Source of the DNA: Mayamaea pseudoterrestris
Taxonomy: Eukaryota
Reading direction: 5' to 3'
Assembly (NCBI GenBank): GCA_027923505.1
Contig: BROI01000021.1
Span: forward strand, 186,001-250,000
Length of the DNA stretch: 64,000 bases
The position numbers and the translations under genes are program-made. Shown here piece after piece: positions 5,847-16,568 of the stretch. A model generated the notes under the pieces. It made no database searches. It was not told the origin of the DNA and saw only the letters and a list, made by a program, of their open reading frames with translations. Within the stretch, counting starts at the first letter, position 1, and the number at the start of each line of letters is the position of its first letter.

Positions 5847-8800
5847 TTAACCTTCTACCAAGAAATCCTCCAGATCAGCGTATGGATCGTCATCAAAAGC
5901 ATCGTCGAAACCACTTTTTTGAATGTAAAAAACGTTTATCTTCTTGTCGTCCTCGTACATTTCATCGATGGCTTTGTTGCGGCTTCGGAATATTTTTTTA
6001 CCTCGCTCTTTTCGAGCTCGTCTCGCAATTTCAGCCTCGCGTGCCTTTTTCAAAGCGCATTCTGAGTCAGTTAGTTCTTGTTGACTCCTTTCAATGACAC
6101 TTAATTTGCTTTTGACAAGTTGAAGCAACCGCCCTCCTTGATCTTCGTCGCGATAATCACTATCGCTGTCCTTGCTGTGGTCGCTCGCATCGATTCGGCT
6201 GTTGCTTAAACGATTCAAGCCAGCGATAAAGCAGACATTCTGCAGTTTTGAAGACTGAAGAACACGTTTGAGCTGCTGTAGGTTTGCTTGTGCGTACTCA
6301 ATTCGAAGTAGCGCAGATTTTATCTTCTGTTTGTATTCCTCTTCGACGGCATACCATTTTGCGGCAGCCCAAATCAAGTCAAGAGAATCGAGTGTATCGA
6401 GCCAAACCAAAATACATACCAGAGACTCCACCACGTCGAGGTGGCGTGTTCCTTCTCTTTTACAACACTTCCCAGCACAAAGCAATATCGTTCGCAGTGC
6501 CTTTTGTTGCACACCCACAATCCTGTCGAGCAAAGCTAATGCCCGTAGTTTCACGCGAGACGGCAATAGAGTGGCTTTAAAACAACTAGATCCTTTAACC
6601 TTTTCGTTGGTAAACAAGCATGCTGTGCTCTTCCAAACTTCGGTCAATTCGCCTTGTCTCGCGATCATGTAGCGCTTAGCGCATTCGTCTGATGAGAATG
6701 ATTCGGCGCCGGCGTCCTTGAAGCAGATCAGAGACTCGTCCCAGAGATATTCAAAGCCTTCCAAAGTTGTACAGAATGCCCATATCCAGTGACTTTCGGT
6801 CGTCAACTGAAGATAGCGGTATGCGAGGTGATGGCTCTCTGTTCGCGGATCACTATACTTGTACAACATGTGTTCGCTTCCAACAAAATCTTCCCATAGC
6901 TTGTTGACATCGCGTCGATCCATTATATTAACGCACTGTTTAAACGCATCCGAGCAAAACTTGCATCCAGGCGATGTTTGGTGTCGATCAATTTCCCCAG
7001 AGTCGCCTTTCAATCGTAATTGCCGTATGGCTGTCCGAGCTAAGAACGGCAAATTGTACATCGACAACATAAGTGACATCTTAAAAATCCCCGATTGGCG
7101 AAGCGCATAGGAACACACAAGTCTTTGTAGCTTTTTGCCAGCGCGGTTGCAAACAGAAGCCAGGCGGCGCAAGTGAAACTTGTCTCGACAGGATGGAAGC
7201 TGGATCAGGGCTTCACGAACAGATGCGTGCATACACGCGTGGTAGGCCTCGAACAAGTCATAGTCGACCATTCCACTAGATCCCACCATGCCTTCTACCA
7301 AATCATTAGAAATGATGGCAATAATATCACAGAGCAATTCAAGCGGATGCGATGGTTCATCTATATTGACCGACGAGTTGATGCTTCCTCCACTCTCATC
7401 GCACAGCTCCACAGGAATGCATTTTGTCAAAACAGACACGACGTTAAATCGAAAGTTGCGGATGGAGAGGTCGATCTCGGCATCACTCCTGCCGTTCGAG
7501 ACTGAGACGTAAAACAGACGTAGTTGAGCAGAGGCGTCCTCGTTGCAAAGCGTTGAATACAAACGCAGCGTTGATGGAACAAGATCAAGAGAATGTGCCG
7601 GTTCGACAGCGTCCATCAGTTTAGATACTGCAGCGCACAACAGAGTTGTGGCGTTTACCATTGCATCAATGTCAGCCTGGGGTGCTCCTGTTGAGAGACA
7701 TGATTTGAAAACAGGCGTCAATAGCGTTGTAAAGTTTCTATATGCTCCAAACATGCAGAAAGCACTCCCATCCGAAATCGCACATTTCAGTGGGAGTGAG
7801 CTCATGCTCATTGTTATTAGACGACTCAGACCTAGAACAGCCCTCCTCCGATCGGACGTCGAGAGGCTCTCAAGGTGCGATGCTGCATTAAAACCCGCCC
7901 ATCGGCTTCCAATCAAGAGATCCAAAACGACGGCGCACAGGGTTCTGTTGAATGAGCTCAGCTCCTCGACTGCAGGTTGACTACTTCGTAAAGAGCGCCA
8001 GGACCCCTGTGAATTGTACACTTCCCGGCCCACTAAGCTTGAAAGCATGGCCAGAGGAGGATTAACGACCAGCTGAGCCTCATTTAACAATCGAGATTCC
8101 AAATCCGACAACGAATGTTGCGCGAGCGCCGAGAAGGACGCACAGGCAATGCTCTCCATTATTCTCGCAACGAAAAGAAAGGTGGAATATATTAAAGAAT
8201 ACTCAATTTTTGCCGCTTGTATATCAATGTTTGGGAATCGAGCGGTAGCAACTTCTTCTCTCCACACGAGCTGAAATAGATGACGATGCCAGTCGGATGC
8301 AAATAATCTGAAGTCAGCATCTCCGTTTGCTACCGCATGACAGAGGTCAATCGCCAGGCGAAGCAATCCTGCAACGTCATCTGTTTGCTCCGTTGGATGA
8401 TCAGCATGCTGACTCTTGACGAAAACTTTCGAAGGCAAGAAACGTTCCGAACACTCTTCACTTCTGCTGAGAAACGAAGTGAGACGGAGCATGACTGCGG
8501 CTAGTAAGGGCTCAGCGTCATTTGGGCGAAGGTGCCCTGCGGCGACACGCTTACATAGTTCTCCAAAAAGCCATAATCGACTTGAGAGTGGCAAGCTGGG
8601 CATGCATGATATGATTATTTGCAAGAGCATCATCCATGCTTCCGTTTCGCAGTCATCCCGTCTTGCTGCAGCAACAAGTTCGACAAGCGCATACAGGCCG
8701 CATTGAATGCTATTGAGCTCCTCGTCCAGTCTCTTAACTCCGGTTGGGGCCATAGACGCTAGCACAAAAGGAAGGTCCGGCCGTTTTAGAGTTTTCCTAG

Positions 8801-11093
8801 AAAAATTAAGCATGGCGAGGCGAGCCGACTCTAATGGTGCGAGACAAGCTGCAATTTCGATAAAGATATCGAGTGGAAGTTCCTTTGAAAAAACTGCCGC
8901 GAGTCCATTGAGCGCACAGGTAGGAGTCTGGATGCCCGCAAAACCAGTAGTCGCTATTATATTGGAAATTGCGTGAGAGATAATCTTGGATCGAGCTGTA
9001 AATTGTCTTTCAAAGAAGCAAACACCAGTGAAATGGTCTGTCATTTTCTGTACGATGAATGTCTGAATGACTGGAGCTTCCACGTAAACAACTGTCAAAA
9101 TAAGGCAAGCTAGAATCCAATCAGAAGGGCCCTCACATGTTACTGGCCTTTCTATCAAGTGCATGGCTAAATTTGCCCACACACGAGCCCGATCCGCTGA
9201 ATGGAAGGTATAACTTTCGGTCAAGGCGTCATGTCCAAGGTGCAAACTGTTGACGATTACGGTAGCAGCATGTGATAGTAATGCGTTTTGTCGTCCGTTG
9301 TAGTCTACCAAAACGCCATGCCCCGTGTGTCTGACGTCGTCAAAAATGGAACATTTCTGGCCAATGAAAGCAGCGTCCGTAACGTGTTGACGCTGCGGTA
9401 CTTTGCTCGAAACCAACACGTCTCCAATTGACCTTGCTCTCATAGTCAACGTCACAAGTGCTGTCCAGCATATAGATTGAATAATATCGTGTCGGTGATT
9501 GCTGCTGTCAGTCTTTTCTGCTTTGCCCACGTCATAGCTTTTGCCCGATCGATTCAACGCATGGAGAACTGATGAAAACAAGTCGTTTCGATTCGATTGT
9601 TGTCGCGACGCGCGAACAATCAAAAGTACCATGTTGCAATGAATGCCGGCCATGAGCTTTGCATCGTCTTCTATTTGTGCTGCGCGTTCCAAGACGGCAC
9701 CCGCCCAGCCATTCAAAAGCGCTAATTTACGCGATCGATGGGAGAATGATGCCAGACGCTCCAAAACTACTTGCTCCATGTTCGCTGTAACGACCAATGA
9801 CTCCAGAGAGGTGCAGATTTTTGCCGCATTGTGCATGGCATACATGAGCGAATGCAAACATTCTTCCGTGAGCGCATGTTGTTGCGATAAAATTGGCGAA
9901 ACACTTTTCCGACGATTAGGCAAAATCGCAGTTGGCGCATCAGTATTACTTGTTGTTGTACTCGCTGCAGCAAGAGCCAGTGCAGTGATGGCATCCGCAA
10001 CCTTGACCAAGCGCATATCCACCTTTTCCGTCGCGTCAGTCTTTCGCAGTCGACTATTCTGCACAATTTGCAAAATTCTCGTCCAATCGCTTGGCCGCCA
10101 CAACTTGCTCAGCTGCGTAACAAGTTTCAGCCACGGAACCAATGTAGCCATGGAGTGTACTGTTGAAGCATCCTTGTCCGTTTCATCTTCCTGCTGCAGC
10201 ATCATGACGCAGTCCATGGACTTGTGAAACAAGTGTTCGTCGTTCAAGCTCGCCTGCGCCAGCGAGACAATCGAGGCGAGTAGTTGTTTCGCGAATGCCC
10301 TTTCGTCGTCGAGTACAATCTTATCAGTCGACTGGTTCCCTTGCGACGAGAAGTCGCTATTGACTACCAGTAGTAGTTTGCTCATGGCTTGCTTGACGAG
10401 GACTAGAATATAATCGCGCGGAGTCTTGCTGCTGCTGCCAGTGATGTGGCTGTTGTGAGTGGATTGATTGCAAGTATCCATTTTTCTTGCCTTGTGTCCA
10501 TGTGGAAAAGATGCTGTAGATTGCTGTCGCTCGTACTGACACCACGCTGCAGCCGCTGAATACAAGAATTGTTGAATGGTTTCCAGAGAGTGTTGAGTGT
10601 TTATTGTAATGTCGGTGGCTGCCATCCAAAAAAGTTCGTAGGCTGTCGGAACGCTGTGACTCAACAAGGCGAGCAGAAACGTTTCGTGTCGGCGGAGGCG
10701 ACTGGAGGCGTCAGTACTTGTTGCAGTAGGAGTACTTGTAGCATCAACTTGTAATATCTGCTGCTGGTGCTGCTGCTGCTGTTGCTGTTGTATGAAGGAG
10801 ACATGACTCTGGAGCGGCAAGACGACTAGTGCCTCGTCAATGGAATTGGATTGTTTTGCCGAGTCGTAGTCGAGTAACGCTGCAACTTTGGCAAAATCCT
10901 TGGAGTCGACGGCAGCGTATAGCTGCTCTAATATGTCTGCGCCGCCAGTCGTTTGTAGCGTTTTGGATTGTTTGGAATCGTCTTGCACAGTCATTTGTAC
11001 TTGCTTCATGCCCAACGAATGCAGCTGCTCCTGCTGCTGACGGATATCACTGCTGATTGCTGACACTGCCTGCCTGCCTTTCCAGTCACTCAA
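5847..11093 (-). CDS. Large (about 1.7k aa) hypothetical protein, probably alpha-helical; start uncertain (first ATG at 11009)
   Basis: Uninterrupted 5.2-kb ORF; polyQ near the N-terminus; basic/acidic C-terminal motif RSRNKAIDEMY...YADLEDFL. No family recognised. Confidence 0.75.
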   Translation of the reverse strand: MSDWKGRQAVSAISSDIRQQQEQLHSLGMKQVQMTVQDDSKQSKTLQTTGGADILEQLYAAVDSKDFAKVAALLDYDSAKQSNSIDEALVVLPLQSHVSFIQQQQQQQHQQQILQVDATSTPTATSTDASSRLRRHETFLLALLSHSVPTAYELFWMAATDITINTQHSLETIQQFLYSAAAAWCQYERQQSTASFPHGHKARKMDTCNQSTHNSHITGSSSKTPRDYILVLVKQAMSKLLLVVNSDFSSQGNQSTDKIVLDDERAFAKQLLASIVSLAQASLNDEHLFHKSMDCVMMLQQEDETDKDASTVHSMATLVPWLKLVTQLSKLWRPSDWTRILQIVQNSRLRKTDATEKVDMRLVKVADAITALALAAASTTTSNTDAPTAILPNRRKSVSPILSQQHALTEECLHSLMYAMHNAAKICTSLESLVVTANMEQVVLERLASFSHRSRKLALLNGWAGAVLERAAQIEDDAKLMAGIHCNMVLLIVRASRQQSNRNDLFSSVLHALNRSGKSYDVGKAEKTDSSNHRHDIIQSICWTALVTLTMRARSIGDVLVSSKVPQRQHVTDAAFIGQKCSIFDDVRHTGHGVLVDYNGRQNALLSHAATVIVNSLHLGHDALTESYTFHSADRARVWANLAMHLIERPVTCEGPSDWILACLILTVVYVEAPVIQTFIVQKMTDHFTGVCFFERQFTARSKIISHAISNIIATTGFAGIQTPTCALNGLAAVFSKELPLDIFIEIAACLAPLESARLAMLNFSRKTLKRPDLPFVLASMAPTGVKRLDEELNSIQCGLYALVELVAAARRDDCETEAWMMLLQIIISCMPSLPLSSRLWLFGELCKRVAAGHLRPNDAEPLLAAVMLRLTSFLSRSEECSERFLPSKVFVKSQHADHPTEQTDDVAGLLRLAIDLCHAVANGDADFRLFASDWHRHLFQLVWREEVATARFPNIDIQAAKIEYSLIYSTFLFVARIMESIACASFSALAQHSLSDLESRLLNEAQLVVNPPLAMLSSLVGREVYNSQGSWRSLRSSQPAVEELSSFNRTLCAVVLDLLIGSRWAGFNAASHLESLSTSDRRRAVLGLSRLITMSMSSLPLKCAISDGSAFCMFGAYRNFTTLLTPVFKSCLSTGAPQADIDAMVNATTLLCAAVSKLMDAVEPAHSLDLVPSTLRLYSTLCNEDASAQLRLFYVSVSNGRSDAEIDLSIRNFRFNVVSVLTKCIPVELCDESGGSINSSVNIDEPSHPLELLCDIIAIISNDLVEGMVGSSGMVDYDLFEAYHACMHASVREALIQLPSCRDKFHLRRLASVCNRAGKKLQRLVCSYALRQSGIFKMSLMLSMYNLPFLARTAIRQLRLKGDSGEIDRHQTSPGCKFCSDAFKQCVNIMDRRDVNKLWEDFVGSEHMLYKYSDPRTESHHLAYRYLQLTTESHWIWAFCTTLEGFEYLWDESLICFKDAGAESFSSDECAKRYMIARQGELTEVWKSTACLFTNEKVKGSSCFKATLLPSRVKLRALALLDRIVGVQQKALRTILLCAGKCCKREGTRHLDVVESLVCILVWLDTLDSLDLIWAAAKWYAVEEEYKQKIKSALLRIEYAQANLQQLKRVLQSSKLQNVCFIAGLNRLSNSRIDASDHSKDSDSDYRDEDQGGRLLQLVKSKLSVIERSQQELTDSECALKKAREAEIARRARKERGKKIFRSRNKAIDEMYEDDKKINVFYIQKSGFDDAFDDDPYADLEDFLVEG

Positions 11094-11215
11094 ATCGCTT
11101 CTGCGGCGACGCTTTCGTCACTTGCACGTCCTTTCTTCATAAAGCTACGTACACGTATAGTTGGTTGGTCAGTTGCTCGACTCTTGACGATAGATTGTGA
11201 TCAATTCGATCAATG

Positions 11216-11426
11216 TGTTGAGCATGGATGAGAACCCAAACCGAAGCGGCAGCGGTGACGTCACGAAGACGGTCACATTTAAGTAAGCGCGGTAAGCGGC
11301 AACCGAAGGAGTGGATCGAGGACGATCACTTCTTGGAGAAAATAAGTAAAGTGGTTTTATTGACTCTGTTCTGCTTAATCATTAGTGTCGCTTCAAGGGC
11401 GCGCAAGATATATTCTAGATCCAACA
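11216..11426 (+). repeat. 5' LTR
   Basis: TGTTGAGCATGG...TCTAGATCCAACA; base-for-base match to 16227-16437 by eye. Confidence 0.97.
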
Positions 11427-11440
11427 TTTTCTCCAAGAAG
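11427..11440 (+). promoter_or_regulatory. Primer-binding-site position; non-tRNA type, complementary to LTR segment 11329-11342
   Basis: TTTTCTCCAAGAAG is the exact reverse complement of CTTCTTGGAGAAAA in the LTR. It lacks the TGG expected of a PBS pairing with a tRNA 3' CCA. Confidence 0.8.
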
Positions 11441-11453
11441 CGAGTGAAAAGAC

Positions 11454-14400
11454 ATGTCTTCGACGAGCAATACTCCGACGACAGGAGCGGCGTCGAGCGG
11501 TGGAGGTGCACCTCCCGCTCCGCCAGCAAGCGAAGGAAACCGACGCAACCGTCATTATCGTCGTGGGAATCGTGCTGGGAATCGTTCCGGGAATCAAGGC
11601 AATGGTAACAGACTCAACGGACCGAGTCGTGCGCCGAGTGGAAATTTCCAAGGAAGCGAGCCGACGCTCGCTGGATTCATCTACGACTATAACGGTTCGC
11701 GCGATCCCGATGGATTCATCCGTACGACGAACGAGATCATCACTTTCGTCGGGCGCTCCTACAAGAAATATACCAAGGAGCTGCTCAAGGGCATGCGCAA
11801 CGTGGAACTGGAGATTCCTGACGAGCCTGCACGTCCAACGAAGGATGCCGACACGACGGACTCGGACTGGTCCATAATGCTCGAGGAATACAAGGCCGAC
11901 AAGAAAGAGCATGTCGAGCGCGTGCGTGTATACTCCGACTTCCTCGCTGGTCTCTACGCCGTGTTGCATGGACAATGCACGGAGCGTATGAAGGATCGTG
12001 TCAAGTCGCACGCCAAGTTCCGAGACGCCGAGGAGGACACGGACGGAATTAAGTTGCTGGCGATTATCAAGGAGATCTCGCATACGTACGAAGGGCGCTG
12101 CAAACTTGTGGATCAAGTCGTGGCATTCAAGCTGAGTTGTTCGGACGTACTCAAGGAGCGCGCGAAAGCCTGCAGAAATATTACGAAAGCATGGTCACGC
12201 TGGCAGACGTGGCGAAGGCGGTTGGCGTCACGATGCACAACGAGATTGTGGCGTTGAACATTGCCAAGGATGACAATCGTAACAAGGCGAACAAGGAGGA
12301 TATCAAGGCCGCCGAAGAGCTCGAGCTTGCGATGCTTTTCGTGCGTGGCGCAACGGGCGAATACGCTGGGTATTGCAAGCACTTGCGCAACTGCTACCTC
12401 GACGGGCACGACAACTTCCCGTTGACGATCCACGATGCATACAACATCATGCAGCGTCGTGAGCATGCGGATGGAGAAGCCACGTTGCCAACGAACGAGG
12501 GCGTGGCGTTTCACACGACTGGTACAGCGCGTGACCCTCCCAGATGCTGGACCTGTCAACAGGTTGGTCATGTGCAGCGAGACTGTCCTACGAGAACGGA
12601 GTCTACGGAGAGTGCGCCGGCTGCAGAGGCTAGTGGGGCGCAGCACTTCACGCTGGGTAGCGAGGAAGAAAGCGATGACGACGATGAGGTCGGATACATG
12701 TTCGCGCAGCCGCCGAAGGTGAACATCTCGAAGAAGGCTGTGCTCTTGGACAATCAGTCGACAGTGGATCTGTTCTGCAACGCCAAGATGCTGACGAACA
12801 TTCGCCCGGTGCCAACGTGGATGGTGATCAGGTGCAACGCTGGTACAGTAAGGACGAACATGATGGGCGACCTGGAGGGCTATGGTCCGGTGTGGTGGTA
12901 TCCGCAGGGACTGGCGAACATTTTGAGTTTGGCGCAAGTCCGCAAGAAGTTTACCGTGGAGTATCTCATGCACGGCGTGGATCGTCCAATGTTCGTTGTG
13001 GAGAAGCCGGATGGTAAGCAGCGAGAGTTTGTCGAGACTGACTCTGGGCTGTATGTTTGCGAGAGCTTTTCGAAGGGCAAGCGCAGCGATGTCAAGGATG
13101 GAGTGGCGATGTTGACTACGGTAGACGATAACCGTACTAACTACACCAATGATGACTATTTACGCGCTGTTAGAGCTAGGGAACTGCAAATCAAAATTGG
13201 ACGGCCAAGCCTCAAGGATTACCTGCGCATCGTTACTAGCAATCAGTTGCCGAACTGTCCTGTGACGAAGGCCGACATCCTGGCTGCTGAGCACATCTTT
13301 GGACCAGATGTTGGCTCGTTAAAGGAAAGACGACGCGTCGCGCGTCGCATCTGGTGAAGCCTGCGATTGTTGAGCAGCTTCCACCGGCTATCATGAGTCG
13401 CTATCGAGACGTTACTCTTTGTGCTGACATCATGTATATCAACAAAGTCCCTATGTTGGTGACGTTCTCCCGCAGCATTCGTTTTGCTACGGTTGAGGTG
13501 ATTCAAAACCGTACGCTTCCGGTTATGTTGAAGGCAATCGAGTCTGTGTTGAAGATTTACGCACGCGGTGGGTTCCGTGTCGTCGCGGCTCTGATGGATG
13601 GGGAGTTCGCTCCAATGCTTGGCGCGTTGGCTGATCTCGGAGTGGCGCTCAATGCGACATCTGAGGATGAACACGTTGGCGAAATTGAACGTTTTATCCG
13701 TGTCGTGAAAGAACGGGTGCGCGCGACATACAACACGTTGCCATTTAAGCACGTGCCGGCACGCTTGGTTATCGAAATGACGAAGTCTGCCGTGCTTTTG
13801 CTGAATGCGTTTCGAACGAGCGTGGCATTTCGAAGGATCTCAGTCCACGCACTATTGTGACTGGTCAGACAGTTGACTTTAATCGGCATTGCAAGTATGA
13901 ATTTGGTCAGTATGTGCAAACGCATGAGTCGCACAGCAATGACATGCAGGCGCGCACGATCGGTGCGCTGGCTCTGCGCCCGACTGGTAATGTGCAGGGT
14001 GGGTTTTATTTCCTCAGTTTGTCTTCGGGCAAAGTTCTGAATCGTGGGCACGCTACGCCTTTGCCCATGCCTGATGATGTCATTGAGCGCGTGCATCGTC
14101 TCGCTCGTCAACAGAAGGCCAATCCGGGCATCGTGTTCATGGACCGCCACCGTGTTGCGGAGGCTGCTGAGCCAGTCATGTGGCACGAAGATGACGCCGA
14201 GGATGATGATGACTCTGATTATGATGACGACGCTTCTCGCGGTGACGACGACTCTGCCGGCGGAAGCGAAGGAGTGAATGCGACCGATGACGACGACGAC
14301 GACGACGATGGTGCTGACGGCGCAATCGAAGGAGTGCCGAACGACGAGGATGGTGAGGCCATTGACGGCGAACTTGACGACGCGCCAGCCGTGGATGATG

Positions 14401-16297
14401 GCGAAATTGAAGGAGTGCCCGATGAAGGCGAAATTGAAGGAGTGCCAGCTGCTGCAGACGAAGAGGATTTCGATGCGCGCTATGGCCCACGCACTGGTCG
14501 GTATGGCCTGCGTGCGCGCAAACCTCGCTCGTTCGCTCATTTGTTCACGCTCGACGCTGCAGAGGAAGTGTCGGAGCCACTCGTCACGGCACAGATGAAT
14601 ATGCGACAAGGTTTAAAGGCTTTTGGCGATGCTGGAGTGGAGGCAGTGCGCAAGGAAATGCAGCAGCTACACGACAGGCACGTGACGAAGGCAGTCCCCC
14701 CAATGCACTCTGACTCCGCAGCAGCGCAAGGACGCTCTGGCGTATTTGATGTTTCTCAAGAGCAAAAGATGAGGATCTGCGAAGGGACGCGGATGCGCGG
14801 ATGGACGCAAGCAACGAGCATACACTGCAAAGGAAGACGCAGCATCTCCAACGATAGCGACAGAGGCCATCTTTCTGACAGCTATCATTGACGCTATGGA
14901 AGGGCGCGAGGTTGCTGTGGTTGATGTACCGGGTGCTTTCATGCAAGCGGAAATGGATGAGTTGGTGCACGTTCGTTTCACTGGGAAGATGGTGGAGCTA
15001 CTGTTGGAAATTGATCGCGAGATGTACGAGCCTTGCGTCACAATGGAGAATGGCGAGAAAGTCATGTATGTTGAATTACTCATGGCGCTTTATGGTACGC
15101 TTCGAGCAGCGCGACTATTCTGGGAGAAGTTGTCCGCAAAATTGCTTGAGTGGGGCTTCGAGAAGAACCCGTACGATCCGTGTGTGTGCAACAAGATTGT
15201 CAATGGGAAGCAAATCACCGTGGGATGGCACGTGGACGATTTGAAGATTTCGCACGTCGACGTGAGCGTAGTGGATGAGTTCATCGCGCAGATGGATGAG
15301 GAGTTTGGCAAGGAGACTCCAATGAATAAGTCACGCGGAAAAGTGCACGACTACCTCGGCATGGTATTGACTATACTAAGCCTGAGAAGTAGCAATCAAC
15401 ATGGTTGACTATGTGAAGAACATCCTGCATCATGCGCCAGACGACATGGATGGAACGGCAGCTACTCCGGCAGCCAGTCACTTGTTTCAGATATCGGAAA
15501 ATCCTGTCATGTTGAGCGAAGCGAAGAAGCAGATTTTTGTGACGATTGTGATGCAGTGTCTGTATCTGAGTCAGCGAGCGCGACCGGATATTCGCACAGC
15601 GATTTCTTTCTTGAGCACGAGGCTGCAGCAGCCTGACGAAGACGACTATAAGAAGGCTGCAAGAGTGATTAAATATTTACGCGGAAGCGTGGACATGGTG
15701 TTGACGCTGAAGGCGGACCAGTCCGGGATAGTCCAGTGGTGGGTGGATGCGTCGTACGCGGTGCACCCAGACATGAAGGGTCACACTGGTGGAACAATGA
15801 CACTTGGCCAAGGATCAGTGTACAGTACGTCGGCTAAACAGAAGTTGGTAACAAGAAGCTCGACGGAGAGCGAAGTTGTGGGAGTTCATGATGTGCTACC
15901 GCAGTTGCTGTGGACAGGATATTTTCTGAAGGCGCAAGGTTTCGGGGTCAAAGACACGAAATTGTATCAAGACAATATGAGTTCAATGCTGTTGGAAAAG
16001 AATGGCAGAAGCTCAAGTACAAAGCGCACGCGACACATGAATGTTCGGTACTTCTTTGTGAAAGATCGCGTGGCAGCTGGTGAAGTCAACATTGAGCATT
16101 GTCCGACCGGAGACATGGTCGCGGATTTCTTCACGAAACCATTGCAGGGAGCCCAGTTTGGCAAGCTCCGCAACCTGGTTATGAATCTGGCCTCGAGCAG
16201 TAAGTACTACTCGGCCCAAAGGAGTGTGTTGAGCATGGATGAGAACCCAAACCGAAGCGGCAGCGGTGACGTCACGAAGACGGTCACATTTAAGTAA
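11454..16297 (+). pseudogene. Gag-Pol polyprotein, broken in this sequence by about 6 single-base indels and one TGA (real lesions or read errors)
   Basis: Zinc knuckle CWTCQQVGHVQRDC (12545-12586), protease LLDNQST, integrase ADIMYIN/DGEF/EHVGEIERFIR, RT VDVPGAF/LYG/WHVDD (15226-15240), RNaseH WVDASYA/TRHMNVRYFFVKD/DFFTKPLQG. Spread across ORFs starting at 11454, 12137, 13354, 13857, 14896 and 15401. Confidence 0.9.
16218..16226 (+). promoter_or_regulatory. Short polypurine-tract-like motif
   Basis: AAAGGAGTG directly abuts the 3' LTR, the canonical PPT position. Confidence 0.65.
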
Positions 16298-16437
16298 GCG
16301 CGGTAAGCGGCAACCGAAGGAGTGGATCGAGGACGATCACTTCTTGGAGAAAATAAGTAAAGTGGTTTTATTGACTCTGTTCTGCTTAATCATTAGTGTC
16401 GCTTCAAGGGCGCGCAAGATATATTCTAGATCCAACA
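16227..16437 (+). repeat. 3' LTR
   Basis: Identical copy of 11216-11426, followed immediately by TSD CAATG. Confidence 0.97.
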
Positions 16438-16568
16438 CAATGCAATGTTGCGTTTCGACGGCGAAAGATTTGTCGCACCACTTCTCATGTTTTGTCATAG
16501 TGGTAGTCAAGTTCCCTCGTAAAGGCAAGCGATCGGCCGCTTATTTTTTGAGGAGCACGTCGTGAGCC

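What the first reader, a model, noticed from the sequence alone, without database searches (positions are those of the whole stretch)
11326..11440. Copia retrotransposon with a self-complementary PBS: candidate tRNA-independent, self-primed reverse transcription
Seen: the sequence right after the 5' LTR is TTTTCTCCAAGAAG (11427-11440), not a TGG-type tRNA PBS. It is the perfect reverse complement of CTTCTTGGAGAAAA inside the LTR (11329-11342); the match is 15 bp if A11426 and T11343 are included. That LTR segment starts within an initiator-like TCACTT (11326-11331). Known: S. pombe Tf1 (Ty3/gypsy) primes reverse transcription by annealing the first 11 nt of its own mRNA to the PBS, after which RNase H cleaves off the primer; copia elements typically use host tRNAs. 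Inference: a transcript starting near 11328 would fold its 5' end onto the PBS around a loop of about 82 nt, giving a Tf1-like self-priming system in a copia lineage. I cannot check whether this has already been reported for diatom CoDi elements.
Basis: partly seen in the sequence, partly recalled or inferred. Interest (0 to 1): 0.88.

Follow-up and report, generated by a model that had tools for sequence, protein, structure and literature searches.

The report
Self-primed copia retrotransposon lineage in diatoms
A jumping gene of the copia type in a diatom, and dozens of its relatives, carry a start site for DNA copying that pairs with the beginning of their own RNA rather than with a host tRNA, so they very probably prime their own reverse transcription as the yeast element Tf1 does.

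Summary
Window 11426-11440, at the 5' LTR/internal boundary, is the perfect reverse complement of 11329-11343 inside the LTR: 15 nt with an 82-nt loop. No run longer than 12 nt appeared in 20,000 shuffles.

The element (11216-16437) is a Ty1/copia retrotransposon with identical 211-bp LTRs and a CAATG target duplication. One public run holds the empty site. Its family is multi-copy and includes an intact 1477-aa polyprotein.

The decisive evidence is comparative. Among 79 metagenome contigs of relatives, 40 of the 41 that hold the gag N-terminus have a perfect 14-18-nt pairing at the same place. The exception is an old copy with 13 of 15 pairs. The arm sequences differ between lineages (24 distinct among the first 32), and all 14 aligned pairs show compensatory changes. 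The 3' arm starts at the LTR's last A (…AACA). The 5' arm starts at +1 of a diatom initiator-like motif, TCAH(+1)W, in 25 of 44 elements.

This fits Tf1-type self-priming and argues against tRNA priming. The transcription start and the RNase H cut remain untested.

Self-priming is already predicted for the plant copia lineage TAR, so this is a new member of a known kind. My literature searches found no report of it for diatoms.

The parts
11211..11215 (+). Target-site duplication CAATG (left copy)
   Evidence: the same 5 bases flank both LTRs; a contig of run X1 joins 11210 to 16438 with 5 shared letters, which is the empty site.
11216..11426 (+). 5' LTR, 211 bp, TGTTG...CAACA
   Evidence: 100% identical to 16227-16437.
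11326..11330 (+). Initiator-like TCACT (fits the diatom consensus TCAH+1W); inferred transcription start at C11329
   Evidence: The motif is read and the consensus comes from PMC4686930. The same motif sits at the same place in 25 of 44 elements, and one base earlier in 8 more. The start itself is not measured.
11329..11343 (+). 5' arm: inferred self-primer (first 15 nt of the transcript), CTTCTTGGAGAAAAT
   Evidence: Covariation in relatives.
11344..11425 (+). 82-nt loop (rest of R plus U5); predicted hairpins at 11350-11383 and 11385-11404
   Evidence: Fold. The U5 hairpin with a bulged U is partly conserved in relatives (60.4% of cells paired against 46.0% in shuffles; covariation score 0.320 against 0.155).
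11426..11440 (+). 3' arm: primer binding site, ATTTTCTCCAAGAAG, starting at the last A of the LTR
   Evidence: It is anchored at ...AACA in all 43 positive relatives, by construction of the scan, and in all 32 of the unanchored scan.
11454..16297 (+). gag-pol coding region, broken into six frames in this copy
   Evidence: In-frame pieces are 99% identical to the intact 1477-aa protein P0001. One search places one-base differences from the abundant copy at 12123, 13320, 13812, 14696, 15368 and 15383.
12542..12589 (+). CCHC zinc knuckle of Gag
   Evidence: PF00098, E 6.4e-06.
13378..13818 (+). Integrase catalytic core (fold level)
   Evidence: Model with mean pLDDT 79. Foldseek top hits are retroviral integrase cores, E about 3.5e-07, probability 1.00. 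Pfam found no rve domain.
14782..15363 (+). Reverse transcriptase, RVT_2 (the copia-type RT family)
   Evidence: PF07727, E 4.6e-16.
16218..16226 (+). Short purine-rich tract AAAGGAG(TG) directly before the 3' LTR (inferred polypurine tract)
   Evidence: Read; function inferred from position.
16227..16437 (+). 3' LTR; holds the second copy of the 5' arm at 16340-16354
16438..16442 (+). Target-site duplication CAATG (right copy)

Best explanation
The element belongs to a diatom Ty1/copia lineage that primes minus-strand DNA synthesis with its own RNA, in the manner of Tf1.

The proposed steps are:
1. Transcription starts in the 5' LTR at the base after TCA (C11329). This is inferred.
2. The first 15 nt of the RNA (11329-11343) fold back on 11426-11440, which begins at the last base of U5, and close an 82-nt loop that carries one or two hairpins. 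The pairing is shown by sequence, fold and covariation.
3. The element's RNase H cuts the 5' strand at the end of the duplex, after 11342 or 11343, and leaves a 3'-OH. This is inferred from Tf1.
4. Reverse transcriptase extends that primer through U5 and the rest of R (11425 back to 11344), giving a strong-stop DNA of about 82 nt. The usual strand transfers follow. This is inferred.

Because the primer is the element's own sequence, the binding site is free to drift as long as the LTR arm drifts with it. If plus-strand synthesis copies the primer, complementarity is restored at every cycle. That would explain why young copies are perfectly paired and only an old copy is not.
For: (1) The pairing is exact and far beyond chance.

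(2) It sits where a primer must bind. The 3' arm starts at the last LTR base, and only 13 nt separate it from the gag ATG at 11454, so there is no room for another binding site.

(3) It is conserved. An unanchored scan of up to 630 nt upstream of gag found a perfect inverted repeat of 14-18 nt with a 52-158-nt loop in 31 of 34 relatives. Two of the three misses were recovered once a contig wrap (L014) and a longer leader (L065) were allowed. The third, L032, has 13 of 15 pairs, and its LTRs are only 92.9% identical. In the consolidated scan, 43 of 79 loci and 40 of the 41 loci with the gag N-terminus are positive.

(4) Controls for the unanchored scan: the longest repeat was 12 nt in 124 coding windows of the same loci and 13 nt in 680 shuffles. 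For the anchored scan, ten other 4-mer anchors gave 0-3 loci each.

(5) Covariation. There are 24 distinct arm sequences among the 32 elements. RNAalifold found the helix on its own, with compensatory changes at all 14 pairs. 93.8% of cells are paired, against 57.3% in shuffles and 39-53% when the partner is slid. The covariation score is 0.910, against 0.238 in shuffles (0 of 500 reached it) and 0.11-0.22 when slid. The nearest relative by RT (L027, 74% identity) has an unrelated arm. Both major clades of the RT tree carry the feature.

(6) The 5' arm starts at +1 of TCAH(+1)W in 25 of 44 elements and one base later in 8 more (consensus from PMC4686930). Where both LTRs are on a contig, the 5' arm occurs twice and the 3' arm once.

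(7) The binding sites are variable and mostly very AT-rich. That is the opposite of what a shared tRNA primer would impose.

(8) The family is or was recently active. LTRs are identical and the TSD is intact. Run X1 has the empty site, with element depth of about 1100-1500 against 38 in the flank. An intact polyprotein, P0001, exists.
Against: No transcription start, no strong-stop cDNA and no RNase H cut has been observed.

No host tRNA set could be compared. No genome is held, and no tRNA gene lies in the window or in the 79 loci. A small host RNA complementary to this one binding site is therefore excluded only by the comparative argument.

10 of 44 elements lack the TCAHW motif at the arm. 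Most of them have CCA, GCA or TTA instead.

The energy of the whole leader fold is not unusual (z = -1.64).

The window copy itself cannot make its proteins because of frameshifts, so it would depend on intact copies.

Related sequences share ancestry, so cell counts overstate the number of independent events. The shuffle control does not correct for this; the slid control does.
Confidence: 0.77

Rival explanations
1. The long-range helix is a conserved RNA structure with another role, such as genome packaging, dimerisation, translational control of gag or protection of the 5' end. Priming would then be done by a different, unidentified primer.
For: The helix encloses further hairpins, one of them partly conserved, as in retroviral leaders that serve several functions. 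No primer has been observed directly.
Against: The 3' arm begins at or one base after the last LTR base in all 32 elements of the unanchored scan. That is the one position fixed by the chemistry of LTR regeneration. The window has no room for another binding site. No TGG-type or otherwise conserved site follows the LTR in the relatives. A purely structural helix would tolerate G-U pairs and mismatches, yet the arms are perfect in 40 of 41.
Confidence: 0.1
2. Self-priming happens in trans. The 5' end of one genomic RNA, or a cleaved 5' fragment, anneals to the binding site of a second RNA packaged in the same particle.
For: The sequence evidence cannot tell an intramolecular pairing from an intermolecular one. 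The defective window copy must in any case be served by proteins from other copies.
Against: Loop length stays within 52-158 nt and hairpins inside the loop are conserved. Both suggest a constraint on a folded single molecule. From memory, the Tf1 precedent is described as a fold-back of one RNA; no paper was read for this point.
Confidence: 0.1
3. A half-tRNA or tRNA-fragment primer, as in Drosophila copia or the plant Osser and Bianca lineages, happens to match this binding site, and the LTR complement is incidental.
For: Half-tRNA priming is common in Ty1/copia (PMC6317226). Host tRNAs could not be checked.
Against: A 15-nt incidental complement was reached in none of 20,000 shuffles, and it recurs with different sequences in 42 further relatives. 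Binding sites such as those of L002, L006 or L057 are almost pure A/T and differ between close relatives (L010 against L011, L002 against L003). tRNA-primed lineages keep one binding-site sequence.
Confidence: 0.02

Closest known systems
Tf1 of Schizosaccharomyces pombe and the Tf1/sushi group (Ty3/gypsy), the experimentally shown self-primed LTR retrotransposons
   Same: The primer binding site lies directly after the 5' LTR and is complementary to the start of the element's own transcript. A hairpin lies in U5 inside the loop. There is no tRNA-type site. The mechanism is as summarised in PMC6317226 and PMC5445492 (passages read). From memory, the Tf1 duplex is 11 nt.
   Different: The protein backbone is different: RVT_2 and an integrase upstream of the RT, so Ty1/copia and not Ty3/gypsy. 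The arms are 14-18 nt rather than 11. The duplex usually includes the last base of U5. The hosts are diatoms. Nothing has been shown biochemically here.
TAR lineage of plant Ty1/copia elements (including Houba and Osr-1), predicted to self-prime (Neumann et al. 2019, PMC6317226)
   Same: Same superfamily and same in-silico criterion: an LTR segment complementary to at least 10 bp starting 0-5 bp after the 5' LTR (methods passage). The window element meets it with 15 bp starting at position 0.
   Different: The hosts are land plants. Whether the diatom lineage is related to TAR or acquired the trait independently was not tested, because no plant sequences were on hand. The paper's Additional files 1 and 5, which hold the evidence for TAR, could not be seen. 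I do not know whether covariation of this strength was shown there.
CoDi (Copia from Diatoms) groups of Maumus et al. 2009 (PMC2806351)
   Same: Diatom Ty1/copia elements of 5-8 kb with short LTRs (153-844 bp), TG/CA ends and near-identical LTR pairs (passages read). The named relatives of the window element are all from diatoms: Mayamaea, Nitzschia, Fistulifera and Fragilaria.
   Different: The main text of that paper says nothing about primer binding sites, tRNAs or priming: 0 occurrences of tRNA or priming, and the single 'PBS' is the buffer. Which CoDi group this element falls in was not tested. Its Additional file 1 (structural features) could not be opened.
Fungal GalEa copia elements with a Conserved Hairpin Site in place of a PBS (PMC5445492)
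   Same: Copia elements without a tRNA-type binding site, with a conserved self-complementary sequence at the PBS position.
   Different: There the site is a 9-bp local palindrome with no complement in the LTR, and the authors state that the Tf1 model does not fit. Here the complement lies 52-158 nt upstream in the LTR, as in Tf1.

Membership tests
Ty1/copia (Pseudoviridae) LTR retrotransposon | Reverse transcriptase of the RVT_2 family | tested here: met
   PF07727, E 4.6e-16 on window 14773-15405 and 2.8e-16 on P0001.
Ty1/copia (Pseudoviridae) LTR retrotransposon | Integrase encoded upstream of reverse transcriptase | tested here: met
   Window 13291-13857 folds as a retroviral integrase catalytic core and lies before RVT_2. 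Pfam rve itself was not detected.
Ty1/copia (Pseudoviridae) LTR retrotransposon | Two LTRs with TG...CA ends and a 5-bp target-site duplication | tested here: met
   empty site in run X1.
Self-primed LTR retrotransposons (works like Tf1) | Sequence directly after the 5' LTR is complementary to a segment of the LTR (at least 10 bp, starting 0-5 bp after the LTR; criterion of PMC6317226) | tested here: met
   15 bp starting at the last LTR base; also met in 43 of 79 related loci.
Self-primed LTR retrotransposons (works like Tf1) | The complementary LTR segment is the very 5' end of the mRNA | not testable with these tools
   No RNA run was available. Indirect only: the initiator-like TCAH+1W has +1 at the first arm base in 25 of 44 elements.
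Self-primed LTR retrotransposons (works like Tf1) | RNase H cleavage of the RNA duplex releases the primer, and cDNA carries element RNA at its 5' end | not testable with these tools
   Needs biochemistry on particles.
Self-primed LTR retrotransposons (works like Tf1) | No tRNA-complementary PBS | tested here: inconclusive
   No TGG-type site is present and the sites vary between relatives. No host tRNA set was available for comparison.
Tf1/sushi group (phylogenetic membership) | Ty3/gypsy polyprotein: RT before integrase, chromovirus-type | tested here: not met
   RVT_2 with the integrase upstream of the RT. It works like Tf1 but is not a member.
Plant TAR lineage of Ty1/copia | RT/RH/INT phylogeny places the element within TAR | not tested
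   No plant reference sequences were on hand. All named relatives are from diatoms.
CoDi groups of diatom copia elements | RT phylogeny places the element with reference CoDi1-7 elements of Phaeodactylum or Thalassiosira | not tested
   Reference elements were not available. Relatives are named as diatom proteins.

The most novel reading that the evidence does not exclude
A whole, species-rich clade of diatom copia elements has given up tRNA priming. It arrived at Tf1-style self-priming independently of both the fungal/vertebrate Tf1/sushi group and the plant TAR lineage, or it kept self-priming from an ancestral LTR element, as the scenario in PMC3601003 would have it. Primer and binding site are re-copied from each other at every cycle, so the pair drifts freely and stays perfectly matched. 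The element is thereby independent of host tRNA pools and invisible to any host defence that targets tRNA-type binding sites.
Probability: 0.4. Interest if true: 0.72.

Novelty: new member of a known kind. Interest (0 to 1): 0.6.

Why it matters
Copia elements are the main mobile elements of diatom genomes, and some are switched on by stress (PMC2806351). How they start reverse transcription is not described in the literature I could search.

A self-primed lineage has three consequences:
- It explains why annotation tools that look for tRNA-type binding sites will fail on these elements.
- It gives a simple signature for finding and dating intact copies: ...AACA followed by the complement of the bases after TCA in the LTR.
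- It provides more than 40 natural compensatory variants of one RNA duplex for testing the rules of self-priming.

It also bears on whether self-priming is an ancestral or a repeatedly derived way of starting LTR-element replication.

Tried and rejected
- Whole-genome search: no genome is held for this window, so other copies and host tRNAs could not be examined.
- ARAGORN found no tRNA gene in the window or in the 79 loci, so the tRNA-complement test could not be run.
- The viral-contig scan with the RT piece found no relative.
- Sequencing runs: no RNA holder was listed. All four runs laid were contigs, so they cannot show a transcript start.
- No variation was listed in either arm among the copies in those runs, so they gave no within-family covariation. 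81 further rows of that table were not shown.
- Rfam, with the E-value threshold on 11100-11600, gave no family.
- The bacterial promoter/terminator scan found nothing, and it is not meant for eukaryotes.
- Pfam found no integrase, protease, RNase H or gag family. A PDB sequence profile hit only zinc knuckles. The integrase was settled by fold instead. The RNase H domain was not confirmed by any family search.
- No contig starts exactly at a 5' arm, so none could serve as evidence for the start.
- Earlier findings of this scan: nothing by place, words or sequence.
- Literature: searches for self-priming with diatom and retrotransposon or LTR, self-prim with copia and Tf1, and CoDi with PBS returned no paper describing self-priming in diatom elements.
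- L045 has a 14-nt match of a different layout, with two 3' copies and no TCA. I do not count it as understood, although it is one of the 43.

Full report
**The observation.**
- The bases after the 5' LTR, 11427-11440, read TTTTCTCCAAGAAG. Their reverse complement lies at 11329-11342 inside the LTR.
- With A11426 and T11343 the match is 15 nt, around an 82-nt loop. TCACTT is at 11326-11331.
- In 20,000 shuffles of the LTR, the longest complement to the post-LTR bases was 12 nt, in 2 of 20,000.
- The 15-bp helix is part of the minimum-free-energy fold of 11328-11460. The energy of the whole fold is unremarkable (z = -1.64).

**The element.**
- The repeat finder reports 213-nt repeats at 11214-11426 and 16225-16437, 100% identical. 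Two of those bases are a chance match.
- The LTRs are 11216-11426 and 16227-16437 (211 bp, TGTTG...CAACA). A 5-bp duplication, CAATG, flanks them at 11211-11215 and 16438-16442.
- A short purine run, AAAGGAG, precedes the 3' LTR.
- The coding region carries a CCHC zinc knuckle and an RVT_2 reverse transcriptase.
- Pfam sees no integrase. A model of window 13291-13857 (mean pLDDT 79) matches retroviral integrase catalytic cores (Foldseek E about 3.5e-07, probability 1.00). The integrase therefore lies before the RT, which is the copia order.
- In this copy the reading frame is broken five or six times.

**The family is multi-copy and recently mobile.**
- A protein that its source names as a hypothetical protein of the diatom Mayamaea pseudoterrestris is an intact 1477-aa polyprotein. 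It is 99% identical to the in-frame pieces of the window copy.
- Nine public runs from three studies hold most of the element. None is on record as RNA.
- In the four runs laid on the window, the abundant form differs from the window copy by one-base indels at 12123, 13320, 13812, 14696, 15368 and 15383, where the window's frame changes. The window copy is thus the odd one.
- All of these sites except 14696 lie outside homopolymers. I cannot say whether they are real mutations or assembly errors.
- In run X1, a 56-kb contig joins 11210 to 16438 with five shared letters. That is the empty site. Depth over the element is about 1100-1500, against 38 in the flanks.

**Relatives.**
- A protein search with P0001 found 903 relatives at E ≤ 0.001. 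The listed ones are 40-69% identical, and the few with names are diatom proteins from Nitzschia, Fistulifera and Fragilaria.
- An alignment of 28 of them (A1) was used to scan metagenome contigs. This returned 79 loci.
- A gag profile located the gag N-terminus in 41 of these loci.

**The pairing is conserved.**
- I searched up to 630 nt upstream of gag for the longest perfect inverted repeat with a loop of 30-260 nt, with no assumption about position. 31 of 34 relatives had one of 14-18 nt, with loops of 52-158 nt.
- In 124 coding windows of the same loci the longest repeat was 12 nt. In 680 shuffles it was 13 nt.
- The three misses are accounted for:
  - L014 has a perfect 15-nt pair once its contig ends are joined at their 15-nt overlap.
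  - L065 has a 17-nt pair further upstream than my search window reached.
  - L032 has 13 of 15 pairs, and its LTRs are only 92.9% identical, so it is an old copy.
- A consolidated scan, anchored on AACA at the 3' arm, found perfect arms of 14 nt or more in 43 of 79 loci and in 40 of the 41 that hold the gag N-terminus. Most of the other loci are contigs that lack the 5' part of the element.
- Ten control anchors gave 0-3 loci each. Several of those were the same helices seen from the other arm.

**The pairing covaries.**
- The arms are not a conserved sequence. Among the 32 elements there are 24 different arms.
- Close relatives differ by compensated changes: one pair between L002 and L003, three between L010 and L011.
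- The window's nearest relative by RT (L027, 74% identity) has an unrelated arm. Both major clades of the RT tree carry the feature.
- On a MAFFT alignment of 23 leaders (A2), RNAalifold predicted exactly this 14-bp helix, with changes on both sides at all 14 pairs.
- Pair counts on A2:

| Measure | Observed | Shuffled partners | Partner slid 1-3 columns |
|---|---|---|---|
| Cells paired | 93.8% | 57.3% | 39-53% |
| Covariation score | 0.910 | 0.238 (0 of 500 reached the observed score) | 0.11-0.22 |

- Three rows of A2 (L006, L013, L027) are visibly out of register, which lowers the observed values rather than raising them.

**Where the arms sit.**
- In all 32 elements of the unanchored scan, the 3' arm starts at, or one base after, the final A of a conserved ...AACA. 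It is CAACA in 30 of 32.
- In the window and in L024, where LTR pairs define the boundary, that A is the last LTR base.
- Where a contig holds both LTRs, the 5' arm occurs twice and the 3' arm once.
- The 5' arm starts right after TCA. A published initiator-like consensus for diatoms is TCAH(+1)W (Kadono et al. 2015, PMC4686930; discussion passages read). 25 of 44 elements, the window among them, have this motif with +1 at the first base of the arm. Eight have it with +1 at the second base, one within three bases, and ten not at all.
- At a fixed position the motif is expected in about 0.6% of random sequence (my arithmetic).

**Mechanism.**
- The arrangement is that of Tf1: the first bases of the transcript pair with the site at which minus-strand synthesis must start. 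What is shown here is the pairing, its position and its evolutionary maintenance.
- Three things are inferred: the start at C11329, the cut by RNase H at the end of the duplex, and extension through U5 and the rest of R to give a strong-stop DNA of about 82 nt.
- A tRNA primer is very unlikely. The binding sites differ between close relatives and are often almost pure A/T. In the window only 13 nt separate the arm from the gag ATG.
- The near-universal perfection of the arms, with the single imperfect case in an old copy, fits a cycle in which one arm is copied from the other during reverse transcription. This is my inference. It predicts that mismatches are found only in copies that no longer replicate.
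- Inside the loop, a hairpin with a bulged U (window 11385-11404) is partly conserved: 60.4% of cells are paired against 46.0% in shuffles, and the covariation score is 0.320 against 0.155 (on an alignment where roughly half the rows are in register). From memory, it recalls the U5 hairpin that Tf1 needs.

**Comparison with what is known.**
- Self-priming is established for Tf1 and the Tf1/sushi group of Ty3/gypsy elements.
- It has been predicted for the plant Ty1/copia lineage TAR, including Houba and Osr-1. The criterion is a complement of at least 10 bp in the LTR to the bases starting 0-5 bp after it (PMC6317226; passages of results, discussion and methods read).
- The window element meets that criterion. 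It is not a Tf1/sushi member, because it has a copia backbone.
- Fungal GalEa copia elements have a local palindrome at the PBS position, for which the authors reject the Tf1 model (PMC5445492, passages). That is a different arrangement.
- The founding paper on diatom copia elements does not mention binding sites, tRNAs or priming in its main text (PMC2806351).
- Full-text searches for self-priming together with diatom, copia, Tf1, LTR or CoDi found no description of it in diatoms. The library holds open-access papers and bioRxiv only.

**Verdict.** It extends a known mechanism to a large diatom lineage. It does not reveal a new mechanism, and experimental proof is still lacking. I rate it a new member of a known kind, with interest 0.6.

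Noticed in passing
window 11454-16297: The window copy differs from the abundant copy in four public runs by six one-base indels (12123, 13320, 13812, 14696, 15368, 15383) and small clusters of substitutions (for example 13795-13801 and 14761-14780), although its LTRs are identical. Only 14696 lies in a homopolymer. It is either a real defective copy mobilised in trans or an assembly error.
   Followed up: partly
window 11385-11404; alignment A3 columns 47-68: A hairpin in U5 with a bulged U (4 bp, U, 4 bp, loop of 5) recurs with compensatory changes in about half of the aligned relatives. From memory, it resembles the U5 stem-loop required by Tf1.
   Followed up: partly
window 11353-11362; A2 columns about 45-55; L014 ends: A TGGTTT(T)A motif follows the 5' arm by 3-12 nt in many relatives. 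It can pair with an ACC-containing stretch about 20 nt further on. The L014 contig begins and ends with the same 15 nt at exactly this motif. If that contig derives from RNA, this would mark the end of R (the polyadenylation site). Not tested.
   Followed up: no
window 5847-11093 (- strand): An uninterrupted ORF of 1748 aa with no Pfam family ends its 5' side about 120 bp from the element. The insertion therefore lies just upstream of this gene's start.
   Followed up: no
window 16224 joined to 11214 in runs X2 and X3: Contigs in two runs pass from the 3' internal end through a single LTR back into the 5' internal region. This is most simply a collapsed assembly of a repeat, but a one-LTR circle or a tandem array would look the same. 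L036 and L022 also show two elements sharing an LTR or lying in tandem.
   Followed up: no
runs X2-X6: The element is held at 0.87-0.88 of its sampled words in runs labelled with five different coded organisms from two further studies. The flanks of this locus had no cover in the three such runs I laid. Whether these are the same diatom as a passenger, related species, or transfer between species was not examined.
   Followed up: no
L045:7688, 9314, 9530: A 14-nt complement with a different layout: one upstream arm without TCA and two downstream copies after ...GAACA. It may belong to a different element type.
   Followed up: no
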